Source: a virus
Virus record (IMG/VR): IMGVR_UViG_2918493637_000007
Reading direction: 5' to 3' (one strand)
DNA: 64,000 bases
Program-made: the position numbers and the translations under genes
Part shown: piece after piece, positions 20,965-61,026 of the stretch
Numbering within the stretch: position 1 is the first letter of the stretch
Layout: every line of letters starts with the position of its first letter
The notes under the pieces: model-generated
What the model was told of the DNA's origin: nothing
What the model saw: only the letters and a program-made list of their open reading frames with translations
Database searches by the model: none

Positions 20965-20995
20965 CCTGTCTTCGTAGGTCAGTGCTGACTTACCG

Positions 20996-22354
20996 TCAAG
21001 CGGCGACCTTCAGAGCCGAGTCCTTATCGTCCCGGAACCTTACGAAGCGGGGATGACGAAGCGATCCATCCGGTGTCACCTCGTGATACTCCACCTCGAT
21101 CAGCCGCCCGATGTAGCTGTCCGGGTCCTTGTCGATCGTCTCCAGCAGCTCGTGCGAGAAACCGCCGCCCACGCTGACGCTGACCCCGGCCCGGTCGACC
21201 ACGAAGCCCGCGAACTTCCCTTCCAGGCGGGTGCCGGCCTTCCCGGTGTAGTGGCCGGTGATCCGGAGATCCTCCGTTTCCTGCCCCTTGATCTTCATCC
21301 AGAGGTGGCCCTTCTTCTTCACGTAGTGGCCGTCCCAGGGCTTCACCATCGCACCCTCAAGGCCGTTGGCCCGGTGCTCGGCGTAGATGGCCTGGATCTC
21401 CTCGTGGGAGTTCGCCTCGCGTAGGTCTGTCACCTGGATCGGGGCGCCCTCGGGCGCGCAGCGCACCACGAACTCCAGCACCTTGCGCCGGATCTTGAGC
21501 GGGACCTTCCACTCGATCTGGCCGGTGTCGCGCATGATGGCGTAGGGCACGATGTCGAACACGTTCAGGATCGTATCGGTCGCCTCCTCGTCCTTGCGGC
21601 GCAGATCGCCCGAGGTCGTCTTGTAGGAGCCGGACACCGCCTCGCCGTCGATCGCCGCCGACGGACCAGCGTCGCCGCCCAGGACGTCCCAGATGAAGCG
21701 GCGCACCTTGTCGGTCATCCCCGGGCAGCTCTCGGCGTTCTGGACCTTGGCCCGGGCGTTCTCGACCATCTGGACCAGGTAGGGGCCGGCCCAGTCGAGC
21801 TGCGGGAAGTGGTTGCCCACGCGCGAGAACGCCTTCGAGACCCCGGCCGAGACCAGGCTCATGCCCCGGAAGCCGTCGAGCTTGGGCTCGATCGGGACCG
21901 GGAACGTCTTGATGCGCTTCTCCTCGTAGGCCTTGGACAGCATCAGGTCGAAGGTCGGCACCGTATTCGGCAAGACCAGGTTGATGGTCTTCTCGGAGAT
22001 GCCGCAGCGCAGGTCCTTGGCCAGGATCCGGCGCAGGACCTCGCAGGAGGCCGGCTCCAGGTCGACGAGCATGCGCTCGACCGCGACCTTGGCGGCGTTG
22101 CCGGTCAGCTCGCGCTTGGAAAGCTGGTGCAGCATCACCCAGGGCTGCGGGCTGGTGTGGTCGAAGCTGAGCCGGCCGGCGCCCTTCACCTGGGGCGGCG
22201 TGATGCCGAAGGTGATGAACGGGTCGTAGGCGAGCTGCACGACGCGCTGGACGGTCGGGTCCTCGATCTTGGACCGGAGCAGGTCCTCCTTCGCGTTGCG
22301 CGAGGTGGTGGCGCCGATCTCCTGGAGGAGGCGGTAGACGTCGATCGAGTTCAC
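20996..22354 (-). CDS. ATP-dependent DNA ligase (T4 gp30-like)
   Basis: EPKLDGFR (motif I), IDGEAV, FDIVP, EGAMVK, WMKIK, OB-fold GSGF-like GGGFS, SLRHPRF. Confidence 0.93.
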   Translation of the reverse strand: MNSIDVYRLLQEIGATTSRNAKEDLLRSKIEDPTVQRVVQLAYDPFITFGITPPQVKGAGRLSFDHTSPQPWVMLHQLSKRELTGNAAKVAVERMLVDLEPASCEVLRRILAKDLRCGISEKTINLVLPNTVPTFDLMLSKAYEEKRIKTFPVPIEPKLDGFRGMSLVSAGVSKAFSRVGNHFPQLDWAGPYLVQMVENARAKVQNAESCPGMTDKVRRFIWDVLGGDAGPSAAIDGEAVSGSYKTTSGDLRRKDEEATDTILNVFDIVPYAIMRDTGQIEWKVPLKIRRKVLEFVVRCAPEGAPIQVTDLREANSHEEIQAIYAEHRANGLEGAMVKPWDGHYVKKKGHLWMKIKGQETEDLRITGHYTGKAGTRLEGKFAGFVVDRAGVSVSVGGGFSHELLETIDKDPDSYIGRLIEVEYHEVTPDGSLRHPRFVRFRDDKDSALKVAA

Positions 22355-29744: not shown

Positions 29745-32063
29745 TCAGTTGATGTAGGCGACCGTGACCCAGTTCTGGTCCGGGTCCGTGACCTGGACGT
29801 AGCGCCAGCGGGCGTTGCTCAGCAGCTTCCAGGAGTTGTCGGCGGCGAGACCCGTGACCACGGCGCCGGCGAAGGGCTCGTAGATCGTGCCGTTGGCGTT
29901 GCCGGTGGCGTTAAGCAGGTCGACCGCGGTCTTGTCGCCGGCCTTCACGAGACGGACGTTCTTGATCGAGTTGTAGTAGCGGGCCCAGGCGGTCGCCCGG
30001 TCCTCGATGCGGGAGTTCAGGCCACCCGACGCCGGGCCTGTGCCGAACTGCTTCGAGCCGAAGTCGCCGCCCTGCCCGATCCAGAAGATGACCGAGTCGT
30101 CGGCCGCGCTGCGCCAGTAGAGGTAGCCGTCGGCCTCGAGGCGCCAGTAACCCTGGAAGCCGGCCGTGTAGCCGAAGGTGATCCGCGGGTTCACCTTGGC
30201 CAGCGTGATGTCGCCGGTGAGCTGGCCGCCGACCTTGTCGAACTTGCCCGAGATGTCCGGGCCGGCGTTGCGCAGCGCGCTCGCGAAGTCGCCGATCGCC
30301 GACGACCACACCGAGCCGTCCTTGCCCACGCGGAACACGTCGGCACCCATGAAGAGACCGAACACGTTGGCGTTCTGGTAGAGCGTCGCGGCCGTGCCGC
30401 CGGCCCGGTCGTCGAGCTGGAGCGCCGCCGCGGCGCCCGTGGCGCGCAGGAGCGGGCTCAGGACTGTGCCCGGAGCCGTGAACGAGCCGTCGGCGCCGAA
30501 CACCGAGTAGCGGTAGGCGTTGGCCGCGCCCGTGCGCACGACCAGGTTTTCGGTGCCCGCGTCCGTGTAGAGGTAGGTCTGCCGGCCCGAGAACTGGAGC
30601 GAGGCGAAGTTGACGCCCGCGCCGAGGCTCGCCTTGGCGTTCGGGTCGAAGTTCCCGTTGTCCCACGGCGTCAGGTTCGCCCAGCTCGGGCGCGCGGAGA
30701 CGGCGAGCGAGGCGAAGCTCGCCGCGCCACCCAGGGTCGCCTTGGTGCCCGGGTCGAAGTTCCCGGCGTGCCACACAGCCTTCCCGCCCACAGCCACGGA
30801 CGCGAAGCTCGCGTCGCCGCCGAGCGTCGCCTTGCTCGAGGGGTCGAAGTTGCCGCTGTCCCACGGGGTCAGACCGCCCCAGCTCGGGCGGTTCTGGACC
30901 GAGAGCGAGCCGAAAGAGCCGGCGCCGGCCACCGTGACCTTGGGCGCCGTCACCTCGCCGGTGAAGGCCGGGCTCGCCAGGTTCGCCTTGGTCGAGGGGT
31001 CGAAGTTCCCCGCGTGCCAGACCGCGCTGGTGCCGACCTTCAGGGCCGCGAACGTGCCGGTCCCCGAGGCCGACAGGTCGGCGACCGAGGTCGCGCCCGA
31101 GACCGTGAGCGCCGAGAAGCTGACGTTGGAGTTCAGGCTCGCCTTGGTGGACGGATCGAAGTTGCCCGCGTGCCAGACAGCCTTGTTGCCGACCGTGAGC
31201 GCGTCGAAGGCGCCGGACGCCGAGGAGACCGACGGCGCGCTGATCGCGCCTGTGAAGGCGGCCCCGCCCAGCCCGGCCTTCGCGGTCGGGTCGAAGTTGC
31301 CGGCGTCCCAGACGGCCTTTCCGTTGACGGTAGGCCGGGTGCCGAAGTCGGTCGCGCCCGTGACGTTGCCGCCGGCCTTGTCGAACTTGCCGGCCAGCGC
31401 GGTCGCCATGTCCGAGCGGATCGCCGTGTCGGCCGCGGCGAAGTCGGTGCGCACGCTGTCGAGCGCGGCCTGGAGCCCGGACACATCGGCGACCGCGATG
31501 GCGAGCGCCGTCTTCAGGGCCGCGGCCGTGATCGCCCCCTTGAGCCCAGCCACCGAGAGCACGGCGTCGGTCGGCGTCAGCAGCTCCTTCCAGTTGGCGA
31601 GCGTCGTCGCCGGCTCGACCTTCAGGATGAAGCACTTGTTGAGGTCGGAGCGGATCGCGATGTCGCCGCGCTCGGCCGTGAGCGCGAGCATCTCGGCCTC
31701 GGACGCCACCGGGAACGTGTCGGTGATCGCGACAGCCGGGATGATCGAGGCGTCGAGCTTCGAGTTGGCGTCGAGCACCGGCACCTGGCCGGCACCCGTG
31801 CCGGCGGCGAGACGCGCGGCCGTGCCCAGCTCGGCCTCGATGGCAGCCTTGGCCGCAGCCGTGTCGCCGGCAGCGGTGTCGCTGATCGCCTGGAGCTTGC
31901 CGGCCAGGTCGGTGATGTCGGCCGTGACCAGGACCGTGCGCAGGTAGGCCAGGATCTGGCCCACGCTGATCTGCACGTCCCGGCCGCTCTGGACCGCGGC
32001 CCAGAAGTCCGCCGAGCCCAGGGCGGTTGCCTGCGGCTCCTCACTCGCCTTGCGGTTTGCCAC
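29745..32063 (-). CDS. Tail fibre / receptor-binding protein
   Basis: 772 aa, Gly/Ala/Ser-rich; six VW(H/D)xGNFDP repeats; TVASEAEMLAL...GDIAIRSD fibre motif. Confidence 0.85.
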   Translation of the reverse strand: MANRKASEEPQATALGSADFWAAVQSGRDVQISVGQILAYLRTVLVTADITDLAGKLQAISDTAAGDTAAAKAAIEAELGTAARLAAGTGAGQVPVLDANSKLDASIIPAVAITDTFPVASEAEMLALTAERGDIAIRSDLNKCFILKVEPATTLANWKELLTPTDAVLSVAGLKGAITAAALKTALAIAVADVSGLQAALDSVRTDFAAADTAIRSDMATALAGKFDKAGGNVTGATDFGTRPTVNGKAVWDAGNFDPTAKAGLGGAAFTGAISAPSVSSASGAFDALTVGNKAVWHAGNFDPSTKASLNSNVSFSALTVSGATSVADLSASGTGTFAALKVGTSAVWHAGNFDPSTKANLASPAFTGEVTAPKVTVAGAGSFGSLSVQNRPSWGGLTPWDSGNFDPSSKATLGGDASFASVAVGGKAVWHAGNFDPGTKATLGGAASFASLAVSARPSWANLTPWDNGNFDPNAKASLGAGVNFASLQFSGRQTYLYTDAGTENLVVRTGAANAYRYSVFGADGSFTAPGTVLSPLLRATGAAAALQLDDRAGGTAATLYQNANVFGLFMGADVFRVGKDGSVWSSAIGDFASALRNAGPDISGKFDKVGGQLTGDITLAKVNPRITFGYTAGFQGYWRLEADGYLYWRSAADDSVIFWIGQGGDFGSKQFGTGPASGGLNSRIEDRATAWARYYNSIKNVRLVKAGDKTAVDLLNATGNANGTIYEPFAGAVVTGLAADNSWKLLSNARWRYVQVTDPDQNWVTVAYIN
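30630..31330 (-). repeat. Six (V/P)W(H/D)xGNFDPxxKA peptide repeats in the tail fibre
   Basis: Recurrent + strand gggtcgaagtt(g/c)cc units. Confidence 0.85.
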
Positions 32064-32979: not shown

Positions 32980-33375
32980 TTAGTCTTCGGTGATGGCGAG
33001 GGCGCCGACCGGGAAGCTCACCGGGTTGCCGGGGTTGATCGTCTGCTTGCCGCCGGTCAGCGGGGCCGACTCCAGCATGGTGCCGCCGGCCGCGGCCGAG
33101 AACACGGCGAAGTGGGTCACATCGGTGCCGCCCGCGGCGTTGCCGAAGTCCACGATGGCCGAGTTGGAGATGGTCTTGTTGGCCGGCTCGCCGAACGGCG
33201 CGGCGACGCGCCCGTCGGGACGAACCGCGGTCGTGACCTCCTGGCCGCCGGTGCCGGCGTCGGTCGGGTCGCCGTTGAACAGGGCGATGAACAGGCCAGC
33301 GGGCGGGGCCGGGAAGGCGGTGCCGCGCAGCCAGTTGAGGAGGGCGTTCTCGAGGTAGGTGCTCTTGCCGGCCAT
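32980..33375 (-). CDS. Phage tail-fibre-associated structural protein
   Basis: STYLENALLNWL...LFIALFNGDPTDAGTGGQEV, a conserved tail protein pattern. Confidence 0.75.
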   Translation of the reverse strand: MAGKSTYLENALLNWLRGTAFPAPPAGLFIALFNGDPTDAGTGGQEVTTAVRPDGRVAAPFGEPANKTISNSAIVDFGNAAGGTDVTHFAVFSAAAGGTMLESAPLTGGKQTINPGNPVSFPVGALAITED

Positions 33376-33492
33376 TCGGGGCTCCTGTGGCCGGGCAGAG
33401 CCGGCATCGGTAAGTCAGTGGTGACTTATCATAGCCGAGGAGGAGCCGGCGATCCAGAGGCTCGGGAGCGCTTCCTACCCCGGATGCCCAAC

Positions 33493-33558
33493 GCCATCGC
33501 CCTGTATGTAGATAATCAGTAGTAGTCTAATACTAATATCTAAATACAGGCCGATGGC
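33493..33558. repeat. Inverted-repeat element with AT-rich core, copy 1
   Basis: GCCATCGCCCTGTATGTAGATA...TATCTAAATACAGGCCGATGGC (22-bp arms, 2 mismatches). Confidence 0.85.
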
Positions 33559-33573
33559 ACCGGGAAGTCTTGG

Positions 33574-33882
33574 CTACCGGGCATAATCCCGGCGCACGGC
33601 GTTGATCCAGTCCACGGCGCGCTGACCGCAAGCGGTCTTGGCCCGGTCGAGGACCTTCGCCTCCCCGATGATCCGCACCACGTCGGCCTTGGAGAGGGCC
33701 CGGTCCGGGATGTCGGGGAAGGCCCGCGCGAGGCAGCCCTGGACGCCGTCGGGCGCCGCGGGCAGCGTCACGCGGATGCTGGTCCCGGTGAGCGGGGCCG
33801 GCGCGTTAGAGGTTACGCAGGCGCCGAGCGACGTCGCCATCAACGCACTCGCGATCACGGTCCTTGTCCTTGGCCAGAACAT
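33574..33882 (-). CDS. Outer-membrane spanin (Rz1-like lipoprotein)
   Basis: Signal peptide with lipobox SLGAC; Pro-rich; overlaps the i-spanin 3' end. Confidence 0.75.
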   Translation of the reverse strand: MFWPRTRTVIASALMATSLGACVTSNAPAPLTGTSIRVTLPAAPDGVQGCLARAFPDIPDRALSKADVVRIIGEAKVLDRAKTACGQRAVDWINAVRRDYAR

Positions 33883-34246
33883 CGTTCAGCTCCTTCAGCT
33901 TGGCGTTGTCCGCCTTCTCGGCGGCGAGGTCCTTCGCGGCCTGCGCCGCCTGCTGCTTGTTCTGGGCCTCCGCGAGGTCGGCCCGCTTGGTCTCGGCGTC
34001 GAGCGCGCGGCTGGCCTCCTGCTCGAAGGCGAGGTGCGCACCCTTCGCCTGCCCGGCCTGGTAGAGGGCGCCGCCCACGATCAGGCAGATGCCGGCGATG
34101 ATGAGCGGCTGCTTGATGAAGCTCGGCAGGAAGGTCGTGCCGAACACCGCGAGCGCGATGAGCGCGATCCCCGCGATGCCCGAGAGCGTCGCGAGGATCG
34201 AGAAGGCGGTCCAGCCGTTGGCGAGGGTGAGGAGCAGACTGCTCAT
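33806..34246 (-). CDS. Inner-membrane spanin (Rz-like)
   Basis: ATG at 34246; N-terminal TM segments then coiled coil; follows the endolysin. Confidence 0.75.
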   Translation of the reverse strand: MSSLLLTLANGWTAFSILATLSGIAGIALIALAVFGTTFLPSFIKQPLIIAGICLIVGGALYQAGQAKGAHLAFEQEASRALDAETKRADLAEAQNKQQAAQAAKDLAAEKADNAKLKELNDVLAKDKDRDRECVDGDVARRLRNL

Positions 34247-34707
34247 TTCACCCCCTCGAGGCAGAGGTTCTTCTCGCGCGTGCGCCGCCCGATCAGCTCC
34301 TTCTGCTTCGTCCACGCCATCATGGCGTTGCAGGCTTCGACCTTGCGGCCCTGGTTGTAGAGCCGGACGGTGGTCGACTTGCAGAAGCCGGCCTGCCCGA
34401 TGTTGTAGGCGAACGAGACGAAGGCGATCTCCGTCTTGTCCGTCATCGGCTGCTTGACGCAGCTCTCGACCTTGTTGGCGAACTCGTCGATCCGCTTGAG
34501 CAGCAGCGCGTCGCACTGCGCCTTGGTGTAGGTCGCGCCCCACACGGCACCCTTGGTCTCACCGTAGCAGTAGGTGTTGACCCCGACCGTGTCCTTGTAG
34601 GTCCGCAGCCGCAGACCCTCCTCGGTGCCCACCTGGCTGATCGCCGCGACCCCGAGGGCCGTGGCGACCAGACCACCGAGCACGGTGCGCTTCGTCAGGC
34701 GGCTCAC
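34243..34707 (-). CDS. Endolysin, GH24 lysozyme, probable SAR type
   Basis: N-terminal weakly hydrophobic segment, then EEGLRLRTYKDTVGVNT (E-x8-D-x5-T triad), FVSFAYNIG, RRTREKNLC. Confidence 0.92.
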   Translation of the reverse strand: MSRLTKRTVLGGLVATALGVAAISQVGTEEGLRLRTYKDTVGVNTYCYGETKGAVWGATYTKAQCDALLLKRIDEFANKVESCVKQPMTDKTEIAFVSFAYNIGQAGFCKSTTVRLYNQGRKVEACNAMMAWTKQKELIGRRTREKNLCLEGVK

Positions 34708-35009
34708 TGCTCGCCGCCCGAGACCGAGGACGGGGTGATCCCGTCCTGCGTCACGAGGCGCGAGTAGCCGGCGGCCGCGCTGACCAGGATGTAGAGGGCG
34801 ACGAAGACCTTGTTGTCGATCGGCGGGTTCTCGAGGAGCGCCTGCATGCCGAGCTGGACGGCCGCGAGCAGCGACGCGAGCAGCGAGAACCGGACGCTCC
34901 AGGTCTTCTTGATGAGGTTCACCCAGTCGTCGCGGAGCTGGACGGCGAGCGGGACCTTGGCGAACTGGGCCTTGAGCCAGGACCAGACGGCGGACGGGGA
35001 CAGGGACAT
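34704..35009 (-). CDS. Holin (two TM segments)
   Basis: ATG at 35009 with GAGGA RBS; KKTWSVRFSLLASLLAAV...VFVALYILVSAAAGYSRLV; adjacent to the endolysin. Confidence 0.7.
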   Translation of the reverse strand: MSLSPSAVWSWLKAQFAKVPLAVQLRDDWVNLIKKTWSVRFSLLASLLAAVQLGMQALLENPPIDNKVFVALYILVSAAAGYSRLVTQDGITPSSVSGGEQ

Positions 35010-35845: not shown

Positions 35846-36328
35846 TTACTCCGTGACGTCGACGAAGCGGACGAATGGCAGGATCGGGAAGGTGTCGCTG
35901 ACGATCACCGCATAGCGACCCACGACCCGCGCGGTGAGGACGTAATCGCCGCCTGCGAAGGTGCTGCCGTAGTCGAAATCGGAGTAGTCGGCCGTCCGAT
36001 AGGTGGCGAACCCTGGCGGCACATCACGAAGGGTCGCCGTCTCCCCGCGCTTCAGCGTCTCGGGCTCGAACTGACCGTCGTAGGTCGGGCGATCGACGAG
36101 AACGGGCTCAGGGCCCGACAGGTCGACCATCTGCGAAACCTCGTTGTTGGGGAAGTAGCCCGAAACAGGGATGTGCTTGGGCACTCCGATCCCAACGAGC
36201 ATGCCGCTCGCAACCATCTCATCGTATTGAGAGCGTAGCGTGCTGCCGGTCGCGTGGATCTTGCCGGTGAGATCGTAGGTGTAATAGCTCACATAATCAT
36301 TCGGACTGGTCATTTCAGGATCATCCAC
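35846..36328 (-). CDS. Tail-associated protein, paralogue of 36377-36823
   Basis: VDLSGPEPVLVDRP...GETATLRDVP. Confidence 0.7.
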   Translation of the reverse strand: MDDPEMTSPNDYVSYYTYDLTGKIHATGSTLRSQYDEMVASGMLVGIGVPKHIPVSGYFPNNEVSQMVDLSGPEPVLVDRPTYDGQFEPETLKRGETATLRDVPPGFATYRTADYSDFDYGSTFAGGDYVLTARVVGRYAVIVSDTFPILPFVRFVDVTE

Positions 36329-36376
36329 TTCTCGAATACGGCGCCCACAGCGGGCGACGCCTGGTTGCCGCCGGCT

Positions 36377-36823: not shown

Positions 36824-39800
36824 CGTGCAAGCTCCGTGACTGAAAGATAGACGTCGCCAACATTCGGCTCGCCGTTACTGTCGGTGACGCGCAGAATGAG
36901 GTTGCCGATCTGCTTGGGCTCCCAGGAAAACACCAGCACAGTCGGCGTCATGAACTGGAAGCTTCCGCCCGCTGAGACGGAGTAGAGGTAGGAAAAGCTG
37001 TTCACGACGCCCCGCAGGACCGTCCAGGTCTGGCCGCCGTCGGCCGAGTAATCGACCGTCAGCGCTCCGGTCGACGCGTTCTGCGGGTGCGGGGTGCCGC
37101 CATCGCCCTTCCGGTAGGCGAGGATCTGGAAGATGCTGGTCAGCTCGCGGGCGGCGATGGGCACCGACGTGACCTTGCCCGGGTCTGCGTTCGCGACGGT
37201 CTGGGAGACCGCCTTGCCGGCGATCTTGACCGTATCGACCTGAAGATCGCCGATCTTGGCGTTGGTGATCGCCGCGTTCCCGATCTGAGCCGACTGGATC
37301 GAGGCGTCCTTGATCGAGGCACCGTCGATGGTCGCCTTACGGATGTAGCTGCCGTCCAGCGAGGTCTCGTCGTCGGTGATCTTCAGGACGGCCTGGCCGT
37401 TCTTGTCCCGGACCTCCATGCCGAAGATCTCGGTCTTGCCGTCGCCCTCGAAGACGCCGACGTTGCCGATGGAGACCTGCTCGACCCCGTTGTTGGCGAC
37501 GATCCGCATGAGCTTGTTGCGGGCGTCGAGCTGGAAGTTGGCCGAGCCGAGGAAGATCAGGTCCGCGGTGATGGTGCCGGCGCCGAGCTTGTCGGCCGTC
37601 ACCTCGCCCGCGGCGATCTTCTCGGCCGTGATCGCCCCAGCCGCGATGTGCGACGCCTGGATGGCACCCGCCTTGATCTGGTCGGCCGTGATCGAGCCCG
37701 TGTTGATGCGCGAGCCGTCGATGATCGTGCCGCCGTAGATCGGGTTGAGGCCGGCGAAGCCGTCATAGGAGCACAGGAGCACAGCATCTGGGTCTGCCAG
37801 GATGGCCGCATAGTTCTCCAGCCCGGCCTGGACCACGCCCTGCTGGGCCCGGCTCCACCAGGCGAAGGCGTGCTTGCCGCCCGTGGCGATGCTGCCCGAG
37901 GCCACGGCCGCGGCGACCGCATGGCCGTCGTCGCCCGTGAACAGGATCGTGCCGGCGCTCCAGGAGAGCGTGGCGTCCTCCTTGTCGGCCGAGAAGTCGA
38001 GCCCGACCGTCTGGAGCCCGCGCGCGCCGATCTTCAGGGTGTTGGCGGCGATCGAGTTGGCCGCGATGTGGCCGCCGTCGATCTGCGTCGCGTCCGGGCC
38101 GCCGAGCCACGAGGCGAGCGAGACCTCGCCGCCGATGCGGATCCGGTCGGCCTGGATCGAGCCGGCCTTGATGTTGTCGCCCGTGATGGTCCCGGCGGCG
38201 ATGCGGTCGCCGGTGATCGTCCCGCCCTTGATCTGGTCCGCGGTGATCGTGCCGGCGACGATGCGGTCGGCCGACAGCGAGTTGGTGGCGATCGAGCCGC
38301 CGTCGATCACGGTCGAGGCGTTGGCGACCCACGGGGCGAACGCGGTCTGGTTCGCCAGCGCCTTGCCCAGGTAGAGGCCCGTCCAAGCGACCTGCGGAGC
38401 GGCCTGTCCGATCCAGATCGCGCGCTGCACCGGCACCACGAAGGCGGCGCCGGCCGGCGCGGTCCCGAACACGCCCACGCGCGCCATCGTCTCCAGCGGA
38501 CCGACACCAGGGGCGGCCGCATGCACGTCGCCCGAGGCGGCGGCGAGCGGCTGGCGCGAGGCGTCGAGGAACAGGAGGATGACCTGCGCCTGCGCGCGGG
38601 TGATCGAGGCGTAGACCGACAGCTCGTAGCGCTGGCCGGGCGCGACCGGGTAGGCTTCGTCCCAGCCGGCCGGGAGCCGGCGCTCCAGCACCAGGTCCGC
38701 GTAGGCGCCGGCAGCCGGCGTGTCGGCGCGCGCGACCAGCGCGGCACCCATCCCGGGCGGGGCGAAGGTGGTCGAGGCGGTGATCGCCGGGGCCACGCCG
38801 TCGGAGGCGCCGTGCAGCGCGAAGCCCGAGACGCCGCCCAGGAAGTCGGCGTTGAACAGCAGGTTGCCCGAGGACAGCCCGACGGCGATCTTGTCGGCCG
38901 TGATCGCGCCCGCGGCCAGGGCCTCGGCCTTGATGGCGCCGGCGGCGATCAGCCCGGCCGTGATCGAGTTCGCGACCAGGCGGTCGGCGTCGATCGAGTT
39001 GGCGGCCATCTTCTCGGTCGAGATGGCGCCGTCCTCGATCTGCGTGCCCTTGATCTGCCCGACGATGCCGCCTGCCGTGGTGTTGCCCACGACCGGCTCC
39101 CATTTGCCGTCCTCGATCTGGTAGAGCTTGCCGTCGGTCTTGAGCAGCAGCACGAGCGGGCCGTCGTAGTCGGCGAGCGCCGGCAGCGTGTCGACCACGC
39201 CGATCGCCGTCAGCCCGTCGGCGAACGAGGTCTGGTCCAGGATCTGGCCGGCGATCTGCTCCTTGGTGATGACCGGCGAGACCGCCTGCACCGGGCCAGC
39301 GAACACCTCGCTCTGGGTGCCGGACGTGTTGACCGTGCGCGCCCAGTAGAAGCGCGTCTGGCCGGCCGGCAGCGTCTTGTCGATGAAGGTCTGCGCGCCC
39401 GCGACGGCGCGCCCCAGCGACGCGCGCTGCGCATTCTGGGCAGCAGCCGCGAACAGCTCGACATACGCAAGATCGGCCTGGGCCGGGTCGACCCAGCTCA
39501 GCACGGCCGTCTCGAAGGCGGCGACGACCGCGAGGCCCGTGACCGGGTCCGGGGCGGTCTCGTTCACCGCGGCGACGATCGCGACCGGGTCCGACCAGGT
39601 GCCGACCGTGTCCGAGCCGTTGTAGGCCCGCACCCGCACCGCGTAGGTCTGCCCGGGCGCCAGGCCGTGCCGCTCCCAGGCCGGGTCGGTGACGCGCTCG
39701 CGCACCCAGGTGCCGCCCTCGACCGCGACCTCGACCTCGTAGCCCGCGAGGTTCTCGGACCCGCTCTTGTCCCAGCTCGCGCGCACCACGGCCGTCAGGG

Positions 39801-42714
39801 TGCCGTCGATCGCGGTCTCGGCCGCGGTCTCGAGCTTCAGCCCCGTCGGCGCGCCCGGCACGTCGGTGTCGATGATCCGGTTCGACACCCACACCTTCTG
39901 CTCGGGGCCGACGTTCAGGCCCTGCTTGCCGAACTGGTCGTAGGCGGCGACCCGGACGAAGTAGAAGGTCTCGGGCGTCACCTTGAACGAGACGAGGGTG
40001 GAGTTGCCGTCGTAGGCCGGCTTGGTCGCCGCGGGGTCGAAGCCCGAGGCCTGCTCGAGCCACACGAGCACGCCCGCGAAGTCCGGGTCGGCCGGCCGGT
40101 CGAAGGACACGAATAGGCTCTCGGTCGTCGTGGTGATCGAGGGCGAGATCACGTCCGGGGCGGCGTTCTCGCACACGAGCGTGGCCGGCGCGCTCTCGCG
40201 GCCGAGCACGTCCCGGGCCCGGACCTGGACCCAGAACTTGCGGCGCGGGCCGCCGTCGGCCGCGTTGGCGTCGAGGCCGTAGGTGAAGGTGGCGCCGGGC
40301 GCGACCCAGTCGGACACGAGCTCCTGCGTGTCGACGTCGAGGATGCGCACCACGAAGTCGATCGCGTAGGGGATCACGGCGTCCGGCCAGGTGACGTCCC
40401 AGTCGAGCACCAGGTCCTTGCCGGCGAAGGCGCCGTCGCCGGCGTCCTGCCCGCGCACGCGCAGGTTCGCGACGGCCGGCCCGGGCTGGCCTTCCCAGCC
40501 CGCGACCGTGAAGGCGAGCGAGGCCGGCGCCGAGCGCTTCCCCTGGCCCTGGCCGGTCACGGAGGCCGTCCAGTCGCCAGCCTTGAGGTCGGGCAGCGTG
40601 ATCGAGGGGTTCGAGGTGACGCCCATGTCGACGTCGCCGTCCGGGCCGGACAGGAGCACGCTGTAGGCGTTGCTCATCCAGTCGGAGGCCGGCGTCCAGG
40701 ACAGGAGCACCTCGATGTGCGGCAGGCCGTCCCGGAACGTCTGGGTCTCGGTCGCCTTCAGGTTCACCGGCGGCAGGATCTTGGTCGACGGCCGCACGTA
40801 GCTCGGCGGCGCGAGGAAGACGTTCTGCTCGATGCGGGCATACTTCGTCGGGTCGTGGAACAGGGCCGCGACCTTGAAGGTGTTCTTCTTCGGCTCCGTG
40901 ACCGAGAGCACGCGATACTGGCGCGGGGCCACATCCGTGCTCGAGATCGCCCACATGGCGCCGGGCGCGATCTCGCCCTCGAGCTCGGCGTCGAGGACGG
41001 CCGTGACGTTGCCCTGCTCCCAGCCGATCACACCCCGGGTCTCGATGACGCCGGCCTTGTTCACCACCGAGATCTTGTAGGTGGCCGTGGCCGTCGGCTC
41101 GAAGGCCTTGTCGAGGTTCAGCCGCGAGGGCGAGTGCGAGATCACTCGGCCGCCGATGCGGGTCTGAGCCTTGCGCGGATCGGCGATGGCCACGATGTGC
41201 CCGGGCCGCAGCGGGTCGGCCGCGAGCGCGTCGAGACCCATCTCGAACTCGACGCTCTCGGTGGCCGTGTAGTCGGTGTCGAGCGTCCAGGCGCCGATCC
41301 GGTGCGCGAGCCCGCGCGAGGTGCAGCCGACCGCCTGGATGTCGGTCTGGCGCCAGCCGAACTTGTCCAGGCCCTCGTCGTGCTGCACGACCTCGATGGC
41401 GTTCCGGTAGAAGTCCTCCGGGTCGTTCCACGAGACCATCGCGACCGTGTTGCGGGTCTTCTTGGCCGTGCGGGAATACTTGAACTGGCCGCCGATCACG
41501 TTGGCCGGGGCGAGCAGCTTCACCGGGTCGGCCGGCTTGTCGGCGACCGCGAACACCTGGCCGACCGACCAGAAGGCCATGCCGCGGAAGGCCGCGGTGA
41601 TCTGCTGGAGGACCTTGTAGGCCTCGTCGCGCGAGTTGATGACGCCGTTGAAGGTGTAGCGCGGCTCCTGCCCACCCTTGCCGTCGGCGACCAGCTCGTC
41701 GCAGTAGCCGGCGATCTCGTAGAGGCCGAACTTGTCGATCTTGGTCTCGTCGATGAACTCGCCGAGGCCGTAGCGGTCGTTGGTCAGCAGGTCGTAGAAG
41801 ATCCACGCCGGGTTGTTGGTCCAGGCGCGCTTGAAGGTGCCGTCCCAGAAGCCCGTGTAGGTCCGGGCCTCGGGGTCGTAGTTCGAGGGCACCTGGATGA
41901 TGAGGCCCTTCACGTCGTAGTAGCGCGAGGGGATCGAGCCGCCGAACTGCTGGGCGTCGAGCTCGAGGGCCACGAGTGCCGTGTGGGGATAGGTGAACTG
42001 CCCCTCGACGATCGTCGTGTAGCTCTCCCAGATCAGGCCGGCCTGCATGTAGTCGACGGTCGGATCCGGGCTCTCCCGGCGCACGCGCAGGCTGTAGGGG
42101 TGGCCGCCCGGCGGCAGGCTGACGACGCTCGCGCGCTCGTAGGGCGAGGTGGTCTTCTGCTGGAGCAGCAGCTCGCGGTGGACCTCGGTCCACTGGCCGC
42201 CGTTCGGGCGGATCTCGATCATGTAGTCGAGGTCGTTCGGCAGCAGGGAGCCGTTCTTCGGGTTCTGCACCACGAGGGTCGGGATCTGGCAGACGACGCG
42301 CACCGAGGTCGCGTTCTCGTCGGCGATCGTCCGGACCGGCGGCTCCTGGGACTTCTTGATCTCGACGCCGACCGAGTAGGTGGTCTCGGACGAGGCCATG
42401 CCGATCAGCGGCGGCTGCTCGGGCTCGCCGTGCCGCTCCTGCCAGGTCACGCCCACGAAGTTGAAGGTGCCGTCGGCGTTCTGGAGCGAGGTCTGGTCGA
42501 AGAAGATCGACTGCGCGCCGTTGACCAGGCCGACGATCTCGCCCTCGCCCAGCACCTCGACGAGGCGCGCCTTGGCGTCCGAGCGCAGCGTGTTCGAGGC
42601 GTCCGACTTGCCCGCGCTCGAGCCGCCGAGCTTCGCCGAGCTGCCGCCGCCCGAGCCGCTCACGTCAGCGCTGACTGACTCCAGCGCGCGCAGGTCCTCG
42701 ATCATCGCGTCCAT
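36820..42714 (-). CDS. Tail tip / host-specificity protein J (with Fn3-like domains and ITADKI repeats)
   Basis: GEGEIVGL, WTNNPAWIFYDLL, RYTFNG, GCTSRGLAHR, lambda J-like; 1964 aa. Confidence 0.93.
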   Translation of the reverse strand: MDAMIEDLRALESVSADVSGSGGGSSAKLGGSSAGKSDASNTLRSDAKARLVEVLGEGEIVGLVNGAQSIFFDQTSLQNADGTFNFVGVTWQERHGEPEQPPLIGMASSETTYSVGVEIKKSQEPPVRTIADENATSVRVVCQIPTLVVQNPKNGSLLPNDLDYMIEIRPNGGQWTEVHRELLLQQKTTSPYERASVVSLPPGGHPYSLRVRRESPDPTVDYMQAGLIWESYTTIVEGQFTYPHTALVALELDAQQFGGSIPSRYYDVKGLIIQVPSNYDPEARTYTGFWDGTFKRAWTNNPAWIFYDLLTNDRYGLGEFIDETKIDKFGLYEIAGYCDELVADGKGGQEPRYTFNGVINSRDEAYKVLQQITAAFRGMAFWSVGQVFAVADKPADPVKLLAPANVIGGQFKYSRTAKKTRNTVAMVSWNDPEDFYRNAIEVVQHDEGLDKFGWRQTDIQAVGCTSRGLAHRIGAWTLDTDYTATESVEFEMGLDALAADPLRPGHIVAIADPRKAQTRIGGRVISHSPSRLNLDKAFEPTATATYKISVVNKAGVIETRGVIGWEQGNVTAVLDAELEGEIAPGAMWAISSTDVAPRQYRVLSVTEPKKNTFKVAALFHDPTKYARIEQNVFLAPPSYVRPSTKILPPVNLKATETQTFRDGLPHIEVLLSWTPASDWMSNAYSVLLSGPDGDVDMGVTSNPSITLPDLKAGDWTASVTGQGQGKRSAPASLAFTVAGWEGQPGPAVANLRVRGQDAGDGAFAGKDLVLDWDVTWPDAVIPYAIDFVVRILDVDTQELVSDWVAPGATFTYGLDANAADGGPRRKFWVQVRARDVLGRESAPATLVCENAAPDVISPSITTTTESLFVSFDRPADPDFAGVLVWLEQASGFDPAATKPAYDGNSTLVSFKVTPETFYFVRVAAYDQFGKQGLNVGPEQKVWVSNRIIDTDVPGAPTGLKLETAAETAIDGTLTAVVRASWDKSGSENLAGYEVEVAVEGGTWVRERVTDPAWERHGLAPGQTYAVRVRAYNGSDTVGTWSDPVAIVAAVNETAPDPVTGLAVVAAFETAVLSWVDPAQADLAYVELFAAAAQNAQRASLGRAVAGAQTFIDKTLPAGQTRFYWARTVNTSGTQSEVFAGPVQAVSPVITKEQIAGQILDQTSFADGLTAIGVVDTLPALADYDGPLVLLLKTDGKLYQIEDGKWEPVVGNTTAGGIVGQIKGTQIEDGAISTEKMAANSIDADRLVANSITAGLIAAGAIKAEALAAGAITADKIAVGLSSGNLLFNADFLGGVSGFALHGASDGVAPAITASTTFAPPGMGAALVARADTPAAGAYADLVLERRLPAGWDEAYPVAPGQRYELSVYASITRAQAQVILLFLDASRQPLAAASGDVHAAAPGVGPLETMARVGVFGTAPAGAAFVVPVQRAIWIGQAAPQVAWTGLYLGKALANQTAFAPWVANASTVIDGGSIATNSLSADRIVAGTITADQIKGGTITGDRIAAGTITGDNIKAGSIQADRIRIGGEVSLASWLGGPDATQIDGGHIAANSIAANTLKIGARGLQTVGLDFSADKEDATLSWSAGTILFTGDDGHAVAAAVASGSIATGGKHAFAWWSRAQQGVVQAGLENYAAILADPDAVLLCSYDGFAGLNPIYGGTIIDGSRINTGSITADQIKAGAIQASHIAAGAITAEKIAAGEVTADKLGAGTITADLIFLGSANFQLDARNKLMRIVANNGVEQVSIGNVGVFEGDGKTEIFGMEVRDKNGQAVLKITDDETSLDGSYIRKATIDGASIKDASIQSAQIGNAAITNAKIGDLQVDTVKIAGKAVSQTVANADPGKVTSVPIAARELTSIFQILAYRKGDGGTPHPQNASTGALTVDYSADGGQTWTVLRGVVNSFSYLYSVSAGGSFQFMTPTVLVFSWEPKQIGNLILRVTDSNGEPNVGDVYLSVTELAR

Positions 42715-43413
42715 TTAGAAGCCGCCCTTCGTGTCGCCCGTCGTCTGCCCGGTCTTGATCGAGGTCGTGACCGAGCCGTCCTCGTTGATCTTGGTCACGG
42801 TGCCGTCCGGGCTCGCGCCCATCGCGATGTCCTCGACGTCCAGCCCGGTCGAGGCCGCGATCGAGCCGCACATCACGCGGCCGTAGATGAGGGGCACGGC
42901 CGTGCCCTGCTCGGTGCCGTTCGTCGGCCCGGAGAAGGCGAAGCTGTCCTCCTTCTTGCCGGTGTCGGAGGACTCCTTCTTCGTCATCATCTGGGCCGCG
43001 CCCGAGACCGCGAGGCCGAGGCCCAGCACCGCGACCGAGCCCCACATGCCGCCCGAGGTCAGGCCGGCGAGCGGGGCGGCCAGCGTGCCGCCTGAGGCGA
43101 AGATCGCCACGCCGACCAGCGCGACGCCCAGGATGGCCTTGAGCGCGCCGCCCTTGGCGCGGCCGGCCGCGACCGGCACCAGGTGCAGGTCCGCCTGGCC
43201 GAGGCGCAGCGTGTTGATGTCCTCCTCGCCGAGCCGCAGCCCGGTCCGGCGCTCGCCGCGGATCACCTCGTAGGAGCCCTGCTTCAGGGCCTCGAGGAAG
43301 CCCTTCACCTGGACGCCGATCCCGCGGATGCACTCGCCGACCGTCGCGGCGTCGAGCCGGAACTCCGGGCCGAACTCGCGCTTCAGGCGGCCGTGCAGGA
43401 TGACCCTACGCAT
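42715..43413 (-). CDS. Tail assembly protein I
   Basis: MRRVILHGRLKREFG, HLVPVAAG, FAFSGPTNGTEQGTAVPLIYG. Confidence 0.88.
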   Translation of the reverse strand: MRRVILHGRLKREFGPEFRLDAATVGECIRGIGVQVKGFLEALKQGSYEVIRGERRTGLRLGEEDINTLRLGQADLHLVPVAAGRAKGGALKAILGVALVGVAIFASGGTLAAPLAGLTSGGMWGSVAVLGLGLAVSGAAQMMTKKESSDTGKKEDSFAFSGPTNGTEQGTAVPLIYGRVMCGSIAASTGLDVEDIAMGASPDGTVTKINEDGSVTTSIKTGQTTGDTKGGF

Positions 43414-44947: not shown

Positions 44948-44976
44948 ATCATAAGTCAGCGCTGACTTATCGTCCA
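44948..44976 (-). promoter_or_regulatory. Sigma70-like promoter with the operator in its spacer (gene L)
   Basis: TGGACG-17nt-TATGAT enclosing the operator at 44953-44968. Confidence 0.6.
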
Positions 44977-56108: not shown

Positions 56109-56241
56109 TCCCAATTCTCCTTGGCGACTGCCCGTGCCGGGCATAAGTCATCGGTGACTTACAATAGGATATCCGGCACGGGACTCGTCGCCAAGCAAAA
56201 TCAGTCAGCACTGACTGATTTTTTGCACCACGCAAGGGGTT

Positions 56242-58907: not shown

Positions 58908-58936
58908 ATAATAAGTCAGCGCTGACTTGTACGCAA
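58908..58936 (-). promoter_or_regulatory. Sigma70-like promoter with the operator filling its spacer (portal)
   Basis: TTGCGT-17nt-TATTAT; the spacer contains the perfect operator at 58913-58928. Confidence 0.65.
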
Positions 58937-58938
58937 CC

Positions 58939-60243
58939 TCAGACCGACACCCCAAGGACGCTGATGCGCCGGACTGGGAACTTGAAGTCGATGCAGTAGC
59001 CGATCGCGTCCATCGGGTGCTCGACGCCCTGCGACTTGTCCACCTCGCGGGTGCCCGGCTTGTAGATGGTCTGCTCGAAGCCCGCGATGACGTGCTTGCA
59101 CCTCCGGTCGACCCGCAGCTTCACCATGCCGTCGGCCGCCTTGAGCATCCGGTTCACCGCGTTGACGCGGTCGGCCACGGGCGGGTGCTTGCGCTTATAC
59201 TGGAGCTTGCGGAAGCCGCCCTGGCGCAGGATGTCGAGATCGCTCTCGCCGCGCCCGTGCCCGCGCTGCGCGCCGGCCGGATCCGGGAAGATGATGACCG
59301 ACTTCTGCTGCTTGAAGTAGCGCCGGTCGAGTTCGAGGCAGACCTCGGCGGTGGACGAGTTGAACAGGATCGCCTCGCCGACCACCCACACCTCGCCGTT
59401 GTCTTGCGGCTGCATGATGACCGAGGACATCGGGTCGATGTTGAAGTCCTGGCCCACCCAGATCGGCAGGTGTGGGTTGAAGGCGAAGTCGCCGACGTGG
59501 ATGTTGCGGTCGAAGGCGTAGTAGACGCGCCCCGACATGGTCTCGAAGCTCGCCTCGAACTCCTGGCGGAACGACTTCTCGTCCATGTTCTGGCGCGCGG
59601 ACGCGATCTCCTCGAGCGGGATGAACGGCGAGGTGATCGTCGGAAACTGCCAGGACTTGTGGTCGTTCTTGCGCAGCCGGCCCTTGCTGTCGCGGTAGGT
59701 CTCGCCGCGCTGGCCCTTCATGTAGACGTCGTAGAGCCAGTTGTAGGCCTTGGGCGTCCCGATGATGATCGCCTCACCCCGCGTCGAGGTGAGCGTCGGG
59801 TAGAGGACCTTGAACCAGGTGTCGGGCTCGATGTCCTGGGCCTCGTCGACGATCACCAGGTTGAGCGCGACGCCGCGCAGGCTGTCCGGCTTGTCCGCGC
59901 CCTTCAGCTCGATGCGCGAGCCGTTGCGCAGCCGCACCGTCATCCGGGTCTCGTTGATCGAGCGGATCCACTTCTTCGGGATGGAGTCCTTCAGCTCGTC
60001 CCAGAGGATCGAGCGGGCCATCCCGTAGGTCGGGGCCACATACCAGATGAGCTGCTTGGTCTTGGCCGCGGCCGCCCGGACCGCGAGGATGCGCGCGAGC
60101 TGCGTCTTGCCCCAGCGCCGGCCGGCCACGACCACGCGCACGCGGCGCGGGTCCTTGAACACCTTCGACTGGCCGCGGTGGAGCGTGAACTCGTGCGCAG
60201 GCGCGCCGCCGAGCCCGGGCAGCAGGGCGGCGGCGCTAGTCAT
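58939..60243 (-). CDS. terL: Terminase large subunit
   Basis: VVAGRRWGKT, YVAPTYGMAR, VIVDEAQD, IGTPKAYN, GQDFNIDP, HPMDAIGY. Confidence 0.95.
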   Translation of the reverse strand: MTSAAALLPGLGGAPAHEFTLHRGQSKVFKDPRRVRVVVAGRRWGKTQLARILAVRAAAAKTKQLIWYVAPTYGMARSILWDELKDSIPKKWIRSINETRMTVRLRNGSRIELKGADKPDSLRGVALNLVIVDEAQDIEPDTWFKVLYPTLTSTRGEAIIIGTPKAYNWLYDVYMKGQRGETYRDSKGRLRKNDHKSWQFPTITSPFIPLEEIASARQNMDEKSFRQEFEASFETMSGRVYYAFDRNIHVGDFAFNPHLPIWVGQDFNIDPMSSVIMQPQDNGEVWVVGEAILFNSSTAEVCLELDRRYFKQQKSVIIFPDPAGAQRGHGRGESDLDILRQGGFRKLQYKRKHPPVADRVNAVNRMLKAADGMVKLRVDRRCKHVIAGFEQTIYKPGTREVDKSQGVEHPMDAIGYCIDFKFPVRRISVLGVSV

Positions 60244-60919
60244 CGTCGCCGTCCTCGATCACCTCTTCCTCGCCGAGGGCGGCGATGGCCGCCTCGTCGG
60301 TCTCGTCGAGGATCTCGGCGTCGTCGGCCTCCTGGGCGTCGCGGCGCGCCTTGATCTCGGCGTCGGTGAGGTCGCGGATCACGAGCTGCGGCAGCTCGCG
60401 GTCATCCACCTCGTCGTGGGCGTCGAGCAGGGTGAAGCGCTCGTCGCGCGCGGCCACGACGATCTTCATGGCGCGCTCCAGCGCCTTCAGGTTCTTGTCC
60501 TCGGTGGAGAACGGCCGGTCCTCCTGCTTGGCCTTGGCGACGAGCGCCATGGCCTGCTGGGCGAGGATCGTCGTCCAGTTGAGGTGCTCGGACCGGGCCT
60601 TCTCGATCTTCTGCTTGCGCTCGGCCGTCAGCTCCTCGGCCGTCTTCTCGGCGGCCTTCACGGTGGCCGCGGTGTTGGCCTTGGCGACCTCGTGGGCGCG
60701 CGAGCCCCGGCGGATCCCGGCGCGCTTGATGCGCTTGGCCAGGGTGTCGGGCTTGATCTTGAACCGGGCGCAGATCTCCGAGGCGTCCGCGGTGCCGAGC
60801 TCCCACAGGTCCTTGATCTGCGCCCACTCAGCGGGCGTCAGGCGGCGGCCGGCGTCGCTCGCATCCTCGTTTTCGAGGGCGGCGTCGTCTCCCGGAACCT
60901 GATCCTCACCAGTCAGCAC
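60236..60919 (-). CDS. terS: Terminase small subunit (N-terminal HTH)
   Basis: Immediately upstream of terL; LTPAEWAQIKDLWELG...SEICARFKIKPDTLAKRI. Confidence 0.75.
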   Translation of the reverse strand: MLTGEDQVPGDDAALENEDASDAGRRLTPAEWAQIKDLWELGTADASEICARFKIKPDTLAKRIKRAGIRRGSRAHEVAKANTAATVKAAEKTAEELTAERKQKIEKARSEHLNWTTILAQQAMALVAKAKQEDRPFSTEDKNLKALERAMKIVVAARDERFTLLDAHDEVDDRELPQLVIRDLTDAEIKARRDAQEADDAEILDETDEAAIAALGEEEVIEDGDDD

Positions 60920-60950
60920 TTACTTACTCCATCGGGCGTGGCTCGGGTAT

Positions 60951-61026
60951 TCCGGCGCCATCGGCCTGTATGTATTATATAGTTGTTTCTTTAGTAGTTA
61001 TATACATTCAGGCCGATGGCGCCGGA
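60951..61026. repeat. Inverted-repeat element with AT-rich core, copy 2
   Basis: TCCGGCGCCATCGGCCTG...CAGGCCGATGGCGCCGGA (18-bp perfect arms) plus TATGTA/TACATT extension. Confidence 0.88.

What the first reader, a model, noticed from the sequence alone, without database searches (positions are those of the whole stretch)
60951..61026. Twin ~70-bp inverted-repeat elements with AT-rich cores (here and 33493-33558)
Seen: two elements 27.5 kb apart share four near-identical half-sites, GCCATCG(G/C)CCTG(T/A)AT(G/T)TA, arranged as inverted arms around a ~30-bp extremely AT-rich core; both cores contain TAGTAGT. One lies just upstream of terS and includes the stop codon of the small wHTH gene (61008). 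The other lies between the lysis genes and the tail-fibre cluster. They are unrelated to the 16-bp operator. Inference: binding sites flanking a melting or cleavage region, such as packaging initiation (pac/cos), lytic origins, late-activator promoters or recombination sites. The adjacent wHTH or TerS is the obvious candidate binder.
Basis: partly seen in the sequence, partly recalled or inferred. Interest (0 to 1): 0.72.

Follow-up and report, generated by a model that had tools for sequence, protein, structure and literature searches.

The report
Boundary palindromes of a phage-plasmid
The two AT-cored palindromes are real, and belong to a small family of co-evolving DNA signals that mark the borders of the big gene blocks in SSU5/RHEph10-type phage-plasmids; they are probably control sites read by a factor the element encodes, not the DNA-packaging site.

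Summary
Observation confirmed. Both elements are about 74-bp imperfect palindromes: 17-bp GC-rich arms around a 40-42-bp AT-rich core. The 15-mer arm occurs 4 times against 0.00 expected.

They are not a pair. The nearest complete relative, a 116.8-kb circular Methylobacterium oryzae plasmid about 95% identical, has two more copies outside the window. All nine alphaproteobacterial relatives checked have the wHTH|terS copy. The eight read in full have two or three copies at the same places: the wHTH|terS gap, after the lysis genes, and about 14 kb upstream of terS. A Salmonella SSU5-type plasmid has three.

Arms are uniform within a genome and differ between genomes. Some copies keep only one arm. 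Spacing varies. No RNA-strand bias, sigma70 promoter or U-tract terminator was found.

Published terminal-repeat sizes of two related phages, mapped here, place virion ends away from both window-type sites, so pac/cos is disfavoured.

Best reading (0.4): factor-recognised operon-boundary control sites that act as a transcription barrier or gate. The binder is unknown; the fast-evolving wHTH or TerS-like protein is the candidate. Rivals: lytic origins, RNA hairpins, TerS sites.

This scan has noted the same three-copy palindrome on other DNA. I found no paper describing it.

The parts
60952..61025 (.). Element A (E1 copy): 74-bp imperfect palindrome with 17-bp GC-rich arms (60952-60968, 61009-61025) and a 40-bp AT-rich core
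   Evidence: conserved in G001:C3 with one central change
33488..33563 (.). Element B (E2 copy): 76-bp imperfect palindrome with arms at 33488-33504 and 33547-33563 and a 42-bp AT-rich core that is palindromic almost to its centre
   Evidence: conserved in G001:C3
61008..61307 (-). 99-aa winged-helix protein (phrog_900). Its last five codons and stop codon are encoded by the arm of element A. Candidate binder
   Evidence: MarR-like fold, a lead only; only 57% identical in pAMS5a where TerL is 80%
60236..60919 (-). TerS-like HTH protein (phrog_867) directly upstream of terL; start lies 33 bp downstream of element A. Candidate binder
   Evidence: 49-52% identical in pAMS5a, 29-35% in rhizobial relatives
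58939..60243 (-). Large terminase, first conserved gene of the roughly 27-kb head, tail and lysis block bracketed by A and B
33574..33882 (-). 102-aa lipoprotein (signal peptide plus lipobox; spanin-like). Last gene before element B; its stop lies 10 bp from the arm
   Evidence: sequence; homologue sits in the same place in pAMS5a
34243..34707 (-). Phage lysozyme, part of the lysis cassette upstream of element B
   Evidence: PF00959, E 7e-31
32980..33375 (-). Gp80-like fibre or head protein, first gene after element B
33412..33427 (.). Copy of the abundant 16-bp palindrome AAGTCAGNNNTGACTT, between element B and the next gene start. A degenerate copy at 60910-60925 holds the same place after element A

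Best explanation
The two elements are members of a family of 3-4 genome-specific 'boundary palindromes' that punctuate the large gene blocks of SSU5/RHEph10-type phage-plasmids.

Proposed mechanism:
- The 17-22-bp GC-rich arms are recognition sites for a sequence-specific factor encoded by the element itself. The most likely binder is the fast-evolving 99-aa winged-helix protein whose gene ends in the arm of element A. The TerS-like HTH protein is the alternative.
- Factor bound on one or both sides of the easily deformed AT-rich core makes a conditional barrier or gate for RNA polymerase.
- Element A separates the parB-methylase-wHTH operon from the terS-to-lysis late block.
- Element B separates that block from the fibre and replication genes.

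Shown here: anatomy, copy number, fixed positions, concerted change of arms, placement directly after stop codons.

Inferred: that a protein binds, which protein it is, and that the effect is on transcription.
For: 1. Real and non-random.

2. Family with fixed positions. G001:C3 has copies at 34795, 42898 (one arm), 56608 and 83557. pAMS5a, RHEph10, Pararhizobium p5, pLM21S1, pRlX6 and B1VFA each have three copies, in the wHTH|terS gap, 26-31 kb downstream and about 14 kb upstream. Only two arm matches, at about 21.4 and 35.1 kb, were seen in V1VFA-S. Only two were found in the Shinella plasmid. A Methylocystis MAG and genome G389 carry the terS-gap copy with yet other arms. A Salmonella SSU5-type plasmid has three 55-57-bp copies.

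3. Arms are near-identical within a genome but differ between genomes, even between two Methylobacterium plasmids. A host factor is therefore unlikely and a co-evolving element-encoded factor likely.

4. Copies that retain only one arm keep that arm intact. The retained arm is upstream in RHEph10 and downstream in pLM21S1, pRlX6 and C3. The half-site is thus the conserved unit, not the hairpin.

5. The E1 and E2 copies start 0-12 bp after the stop codon of the preceding gene in the alphaproteobacterial relatives read (26 bp in the Salmonella plasmid). They end 20-120 bp before the next start. The standard 16-bp palindrome and ribosome-binding site lie in between, as at an operon border.

6. 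wHTH and TerS-like are 57% and 49-52% identical to their pAMS5a homologues, where TerL is 80% and the p886 protein 79%.
Against: - No binding, transcript start or transcript end has been observed.
- There is no U-tract terminator or sigma70-type promoter, so any barrier must depend on a protein or be unconventional.
- An RNA-library contig of a relative runs straight through element A. It may be DNA contamination or read-through.
- Arm-to-arm spacing varies within a genome (61, 64 and 66 bp in C3), which is awkward for one rigid protein bridging both arms.
- The upstream (m14) copy lies in a 1.3-kb non-coding locus with 11-bp iterons next to a winged-helix protein gene. That looks more like an origin or a genome-end region than an operon border.
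Confidence: 0.4

Rival explanations
1. Lytic replication origins or DNA-unwinding elements. Inverted initiator-binding sites flank an AT-rich tract that melts, with several origins per genome, as in herpesvirus oriS/oriL.
For: - The architecture is symmetric and independent of orientation, with an AT-rich 36-48-bp core.
- Arms are genome-specific.
- The m14 copy sits among 11-bp iterons beside a conserved gene for a 289-aa protein with a C-terminal winged helix (AF2 pLDDT 87; VIA Z 9.8, rmsd 2.8, 83 residues aligned).
- The element encodes its own DnaE, DnaB-like helicase and primase, but no lytic origin has been assigned.
Against: - No initiator has been identified.
- Copies A and B have no iterons and are squeezed between co-directional genes directly after stop codons.
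- The plasmid already has a RepC replicon.
- Three to four origins would be unusual for a 117-kb phage.
Confidence: 0.2
2. RNA-level hairpins. The palindromes are transcribed and act as terminators, 3'-end stabilisers, RNase III processing sites, or nut/put-like antitermination signals at the heads of long operons.
For: - Strong hairpin potential as RNA: -46 and -44 kcal/mol for A and B.
- Position immediately after stop codons.
- Lambda nut sites set a precedent for signals that are identical within a phage, specific to that phage, and few in number.
Against: - Sense and antisense folds show no consistent strand preference.
- Wobble-compatible mismatches number about 12 on the sense strand against 7 on the antisense, with many transversion mismatches.
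- One-arm copies cannot fold.
- There is no U-tract.
- A host RNase would not demand identical arms.
Confidence: 0.15
3. Terminase (TerS) recognition sites: a pac/cos-type packaging signal, with extra copies as secondary sites.
For: - Element A lies directly upstream of terS.
- The TerS-like protein evolves fast, in step with the arms.
- Binding sites around a central region resemble the P1 and SPP1 pac sites (from established knowledge).
Against: - There are 3-4 copies at conserved places.
- B1VFA has fixed ends with a 3,605-bp direct terminal repeat, and V1VFA-S one of 3,939 bp (PMC12509600).
- Only B1VFA 39631-39808 to 43236-43413 fits both sizes within 3 bp. A second candidate at 65.1-65.5 kb appears at a tolerance of 10 bp. 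Neither touches the E1 (54.3 kb) or E2 (84.2 kb) copies.
Confidence: 0.08
4. Dispersed partition (centromere) sites, or selfish or recombination-promoting repeats: MITE-like elements, or PeSL-like joints for module exchange.
For: - The host is a low-copy phage-plasmid with parA and parB-like genes.
- N15 has four dispersed centromeres (from established knowledge).
- The elements sit at module borders.
Against: - Fixed syntenic positions across alpha- and gammaproteobacterial members argue against mobility.
- Identity within one genome is not what exchange between genomes needs.
- There is no link to the parA/parB genes beyond loose proximity.
Confidence: 0.07

Closest known systems
Herpes simplex virus oriS/oriL-type origins (inverted initiator boxes around an AT-rich spacer, three per genome)
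   Same: Large imperfect palindrome. Specific sites in inverted orientation flank an AT-rich centre. There are a few copies per genome, all intergenic.
   Different: No initiator or origin activity is known here. The host is a bacteriophage-plasmid. Two copies sit between co-directional genes right after stop codons. The resemblance rests on architecture recalled from the literature, not on a test.
Dyad-symmetric regulator sites of temperate-phage late operons (Mu C sites, P2/P4 Ogr/Delta sites, P1 Lpa late operators)
   Same: A handful of identical sites stand at the heads of morphogenesis operons. A small DNA-binding protein gene lies just upstream of the first site.
   Different: Those sites are short dyads at a fixed distance upstream of a recognisable -10. 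Here the arms lie on both sides of a 40-bp AT-rich core, no -10/-35 was found, and the arm retained in one-arm copies can be on either side.
PeSL motifs of T4-type phages (promoter plus stem-loop repeats at module borders; Arbiol et al. 2010, named in earlier scan note e1-444421)
   Same: Repeated composite intergenic motifs with a stem-loop at borders of gene modules.
   Different: PeSLs are numerous, lie in hyperplastic regions and carry a recognisable early promoter. The present elements number 3-4, hold fixed positions and show no recognisable promoter.
Lambda nutL/nutR and HK022 putL/putR
   Same: Two or three copies, identical within a phage and specific to it, just after a stop codon at the head of long operons.
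   Different: Those act as RNA and are strand-specific. No strand bias was seen here, and one-arm copies exist.
pac sites of P1 and SPP1, and lambda cosB
   Same: Protein-binding repeats flank a central region next to the terminase genes.
   Different: Those are single-copy and coincide with virion ends. Here there are several copies, and the inferred ends lie elsewhere.

Membership tests
pac/cos packaging site | Coincides with the ends of virion DNA or the first cut | tested here: not met
   Indirect, and in relatives. DTR sizes of B1VFA and V1VFA-S fit only B1VFA 39.6-43.4 kb, or 65.1-69.1 kb at looser tolerance. They do not fit the E1 or E2 copies. No virion reads were laid.
pac/cos packaging site | A single site per genome beside the terminase genes | tested here: not met
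   Three to four copies in most complete relatives.
pac/cos packaging site | Bound by the small terminase | not testable with these tools
   Needs EMSA or ChIP.
Intrinsic (Rho-independent) terminator | GC-rich short-loop hairpin followed by a U-tract | tested here: not met
   The consensus scan finds none at the elements apart from a spurious 5-bp stem. The loop or core is 40 nt and no T-run follows. A strong long hairpin is possible.
Sigma70-type promoter | -35 and -10 hexamers 16-18 bp apart | tested here: not met
   0 sites on either strand around both elements. Promoters for the phage's own sigma factor are not covered by that scan.
Activator-dependent late promoter with upstream dyad | The same oriented site at a fixed distance upstream of each late transcript start | tested here: inconclusive
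   The same site occurs at the heads of blocks. But the elements are symmetric, the one-arm copies keep different sides, and no start sites are known.
Palindromic viral origin (oriS type) | Inverted specific sites around an AT-rich tract | tested here: met
Palindromic viral origin (oriS type) | Initiator binding and origin activity | not testable with these tools
   Needs 2D gels or marker-frequency analysis after induction.
MITE or other mobile palindromic repeat | Variable insertion sites between related genomes; target-site duplications | tested here: not met
   Positions are syntenic in all relatives, from Methylobacterium to Salmonella.
nut/put-type RNA signal | Conservation specific to the transcribed strand (G-U tolerated on the sense strand only) | tested here: inconclusive
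   About 12 sense against 7 antisense wobble-type mismatches. Fold energies show no consistent strand preference.
SSU5/pHCM2-type three-copy boundary palindrome (noted by this scan, not by a paper I could find) | Three or more copies with shared arms at the terS gap and two other block borders of an SSU5-supergroup phage-plasmid | tested here: met

The most novel reading that the evidence does not exclude
A bacteriophage-plasmid uses several herpesvirus-style palindromic origins or fork-control sites. Each is a pair of inverted ~20-bp sites for its own fast-evolving winged-helix protein around a melting core, placed at the borders of the morphogenesis block. The same sites would then couple lytic replication, or fork arrest, to late transcription.
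Probability: 0.15. Interest if true: 0.75.

Novelty: new variant of a known kind. Interest (0 to 1): 0.5.

Why it matters
SSU5/pHCM2/pMT1-type phage-plasmids are very common in enterobacteria: 960 plasmid records matched the terminase region. They also occur in plant-associated alphaproteobacteria. How they keep the lytic genes silent and then switch them on is unknown.

A small set of co-evolving palindromes at the same block borders, from Methylobacterium to Salmonella, is a clear handle on that control. There are only three or four sites to mutate and a short list of candidate binders. The change of specificity between relatives offers a natural swap experiment.

If the sites turn out to be origins or fork barriers rather than transcription gates, that would be a new replication layout for tailed phages.

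Tried and rejected
- RNA evidence. The only runs available were Logan contigs. The four RNA or possibly RNA runs gave scattered short contigs, plus one 3.7-kb contig of a relative bridging element A. No starts or ends can be read from contigs.
- Sequence searches of the wHTH and TerS-like proteins against PDB found nothing usable.
- Foldseek on the 289-aa protein model gave no match at E <= 0.001.
- Similarity between the 289-aa protein and the TerS-like protein was not significant (E 0.44).
- No same-arm multi-copy family was found with my thresholds in Pseudomonas phage nickie or an Aeromonas plasmid. nickie has one smaller palindrome in the terS gap. Aeromonas has TTCCGAGGTG repeats there.
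- A planned co-variation test of arms against candidate binders across many genomes failed for lack of genomes. There were 3 loci in genome contigs and 2 of 401 genomes of the order. Pairs with shared arms (RHEph10/Pararhizobium, pLM21S1/pRlX6) are close kin for all proteins, so they cannot discriminate.
- The GenBank start positions of B1VFA and V1VFA-S are not homologous, so record starts cannot be taken as virion ends.
- No conserved oriented motif was seen by eye in the cores. ACTACT/TAGTAG recurs in Methylobacterium cores in both orientations.
- Literature searches for SSU5 or pHCM2 with 'palindrome' or 'inverted repeat' found nothing on these elements.

Full report
**What is there**

The window is 68% G+C and nearly all its genes lie on the minus strand.

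Element A is a 74-bp imperfect palindrome at 60952-61025. It has perfect 17-bp arms, CCGGCGCCATCGGCCTG and its complement. After one mismatch, six more pairs follow, around an AT-rich centre.

Element B (33488-33563) has the same arms with a few changes. Its 42-bp AT-rich core is palindromic almost to the middle.

- The 15-mer GCCATCGSCCTGWAT occurs four times, only in these arms. Shuffles gave 0.00 expected.
- The two elements hold two of the three most AT-rich 30-mers of the window.
- Hairpin z-scores against shuffles are -11 for A and -6 to -8 for B.

**Context**

The window belongs to a roughly 117-kb circular phage-plasmid of the SSU5/pHCM2/RHEph10 supergroup.

- The nearest complete relative is Methylobacterium oryzae plasmid NZ_CP090351.1 (= G001:C3, 116,758 bp). 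Its aligned blocks are 90-96% identical to the window, and the alignment wraps around the contig end.
- Element A lies between a 99-aa winged-helix gene (phrog_900; MarR-like fold as an Atlas lead) and a TerS-like HTH gene (phrog_867) that precedes terL.
- Element B lies 10 bp after a lipoprotein (spanin-like) gene that follows a phage lysozyme. It precedes a Gp80-like gene and the fibre genes.

**Not a pair but a family**

C3 carries both window elements. It also has a third full copy at 34795-34855 and a one-arm copy at 42898-42915, both outside the window. I fetched and scanned the whole records of the relatives.

| Record | Copies found |
|---|---|
| pAMS5a (Methylobacterium) | three |
| RHEph10 | three |
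| Pararhizobium p5 | three |
| pLM21S1 | three |
| pRlX6 | three |
| B1VFA | three |
| V1VFA-S | two arm matches, at about 21.4 and 35.1 kb |
| Shinella plasmid | two |

The places are always the same:

- the wHTH|terS gap (E1);
- 26-31 kb downstream, after the lysis genes (E2);
- about 14 kb upstream of E1 (m14).

A Methylocystis MAG and genome G389 show the E1 copy with yet other arms.

Following a lead from earlier notes of this scan, I checked a Salmonella SSU5-type plasmid (NZ_CP033346.1). It has three 55-57-bp AT-cored palindromes with arms CCTGCTTCYGTATATA, one of them in the wHTH|terS gap. The family therefore spans alpha- and gammaproteobacterial members.

I did not find it in phage nickie or an Aeromonas plasmid with my thresholds.

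**How the copies evolve**

Within a genome the arms are nearly identical. Between genomes they are replaced.

| Genome | Arm |
|---|---|
| M. oryzae type | CCGGYGCCATCGGCCTG |
| pAMS5a | CCAAGTCCGCGYTCCTG |
| RHEph10 / Pararhizobium | ATCCGGTCCGTCTCCCTTC |
| pLM21S1 / pRlX6 | TTCCCGTCCRTTCACTGTC |

- Two plasmids of the same host genus differ, so a host protein is an unlikely reader.
- Cores differ in sequence between copies but are always AT-rich, 36-48 bp.
- A TATRTAT-like junction next to the arms recurs across the family.
- Some copies keep one arm only. The retained arm is upstream in RHEph10 and downstream in pLM21S1, pRlX6 and C3.
- Arm-to-arm distance varies within a genome: 61, 64 and 66 bp in C3.
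- The two genes flanking E1 evolve about twice as fast as their neighbours. Against pAMS5a, wHTH is 57% and TerS-like 49-52% identical, where TerL is 80% and p886 79%.

**Tests of particular functions**

- *Promoter or terminator.* Consensus scans find no sigma70-type promoter and no hairpin-plus-T-run terminator.
- *RNA level.* Sense and antisense RNA folds show no consistent preference. Wobble-type mismatches number about 12 on the sense strand against 7 on the antisense, with many transversion mismatches. One-arm copies cannot fold.
- *Position.* In the alphaproteobacterial relatives read, E1 and E2 copies start 0-12 bp after the preceding stop codon; the gap is 26 bp in the Salmonella plasmid. 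They end 20-120 bp before the next start. The family's standard 16-bp palindrome and the ribosome-binding site lie in between. That is the layout of an operon border.
- *Packaging.* A 2025 announcement reports that B1VFA, 93-94.5% identical to pRlX6, has fixed ends with a 3,605-bp direct terminal repeat. It reports 3,939 bp for V1VFA-S (PMC12509600).
  - I mapped B1VFA onto V1VFA-S base by base. I then asked where two points 3,605 bp apart in one phage are 3,939 bp apart in the other.
  - Within 3 bp the only solution is B1VFA 39631-39808 to 43236-43413. Both ends of that span fall in non-coding DNA.
  - At a tolerance of 10 bp a second candidate appears at 65.1-65.5 kb.
  - The first solution is the m14 locus plus the small operon after it.
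  - Neither solution touches the E1 (54.3 kb) or E2 (84.2 kb) copies.
  - This is an inference from published sizes, not a read map. It still makes pac/cos an unlikely role for the two window elements.

**The m14 locus**

This locus lies outside the window but bears on the family.

- The m14 copy sits in a 1.3-1.5-kb non-coding region. That region has arrays of 11-bp iterons: TGTCCCC in C3, GATGTCCCATG in pAMS5a, CCTTTACA in B1VFA.
- It also has a motif, GGAAWTTAGGAACGGCCAG, conserved from Methylobacterium to Rhizobium.
- It lies upstream of a conserved 289-aa protein with no Pfam family and 249 or more homologues, many on contigs of 100-118 kb.
- The AlphaFold model of that protein (pLDDT 87) ends in a winged helix: VIA Z 9.8, rmsd 2.8, 83 residues aligned.
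- This looks like an origin, a centromere or a genome-end control region. It keeps the DNA-transaction readings alive.

**Verdict**

The elements are specific recognition sites, not chance palindromes, mobile repeats or the packaging site.

- I favour, at 0.4, conditional transcription barriers or gates at operon borders, read by an element-encoded factor. The candidates are wHTH or TerS-like.
- Lytic origins come next (0.2), then RNA hairpin signals (0.15), TerS sites (0.08), and partition or recombination roles (0.07).
- The remainder allows for something not considered.
- This scan has already noted the three-copy palindrome on other SSU5-type DNA. I found no paper that describes it.

Noticed in passing
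window, about 25 sites, e.g. 9995-10010, 44953-44968, 58913-58928: The 16-bp palindrome AAGTCAGNNNTGACTT gives 49 strand-matches against 0.57 expected. It usually lies just upstream of gene starts. In rhizobial and Salmonella relatives, the equivalent palindrome (GTAAGTAATTACTTAC, TAAGTCACTTA) sits in the centre of the E1 element itself. The two motif classes are therefore not always separate.
   Followed up: partly
L017:2222-2316 (G001:C3:42222-42316): An array of eight 11-bp iterons (C/T)GTCCCC, in two blocks, lies about 650 bp upstream of the m14 palindrome. Analogous arrays occur in pAMS5a (GATGTCCCATG) and B1VFA (CCTTTACA). This is centromere- or origin-like.
   Followed up: partly
L017:3518-4387 (G001:C3:43518-44387): A conserved 289-aa protein family with no Pfam or PHROG hit and 249 or more homologues, many on contigs of 100-118 kb. 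The model has a C-terminal winged helix. It always follows the m14 locus. In rhizobial members its gene is preceded by the palindrome TCGAAAGC-N8-10-CTTTCGA.
   Followed up: partly
L063/L064 (B1VFA 39.6-43.4 kb): Combining published DTR sizes with a B1VFA/V1VFA-S alignment places the direct terminal repeat over the m14 locus and the 289-aa-protein operon. That would make these the first genes to enter the cell. A 332-bp insertion in V1VFA-S at B1VFA 42570 accounts for the size difference.
   Followed up: partly
L017:2700-2725; also pAMS5a about 60725-60745 and pRlX6 about 56165-56185: The motif GGAA(A/T)TTAGGAACGGCCAG is conserved between Methylobacterium and Rhizobium phage-plasmids, about 100-150 bp upstream of the m14 palindrome.
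   Followed up: no
window 37247-39054 and 30592-31326: Coding repeats: a 30-nt periodic repeat in the 1964-aa tail protein gene and roughly 90-nt repeats (six copies) in the 772-aa fibre gene.
   Followed up: no
G001:C3 2.6-3.5, 7.9-9.0, 14.4-15.0, 18.1-19.5, 33.4-33.9 and 105.8-106.6 kb: Several low-GC islands in the relative's plasmid, probably acquired accessory genes. Some differ from the window; the alignment has gaps at window 11971-12008, 17988-18369, 20393-21162 and 35858-36373.
   Followed up: no
window 10017-10643: A 208-aa protein with a Sigma70 region 2 hit (E 6.9e-7). A phage sigma factor could read promoters that the sigma70 consensus scan cannot see.
   Followed up: no
L028:2290-2370 (Aeromonas pKAM376_1, wHTH|terS gap): The Aeromonas relative has a 640-bp gap here instead of the palindrome. 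It holds GGTTCCGAGGTG twice in direct orientation and once inverted, followed by a long AT-rich stretch.
   Followed up: partly
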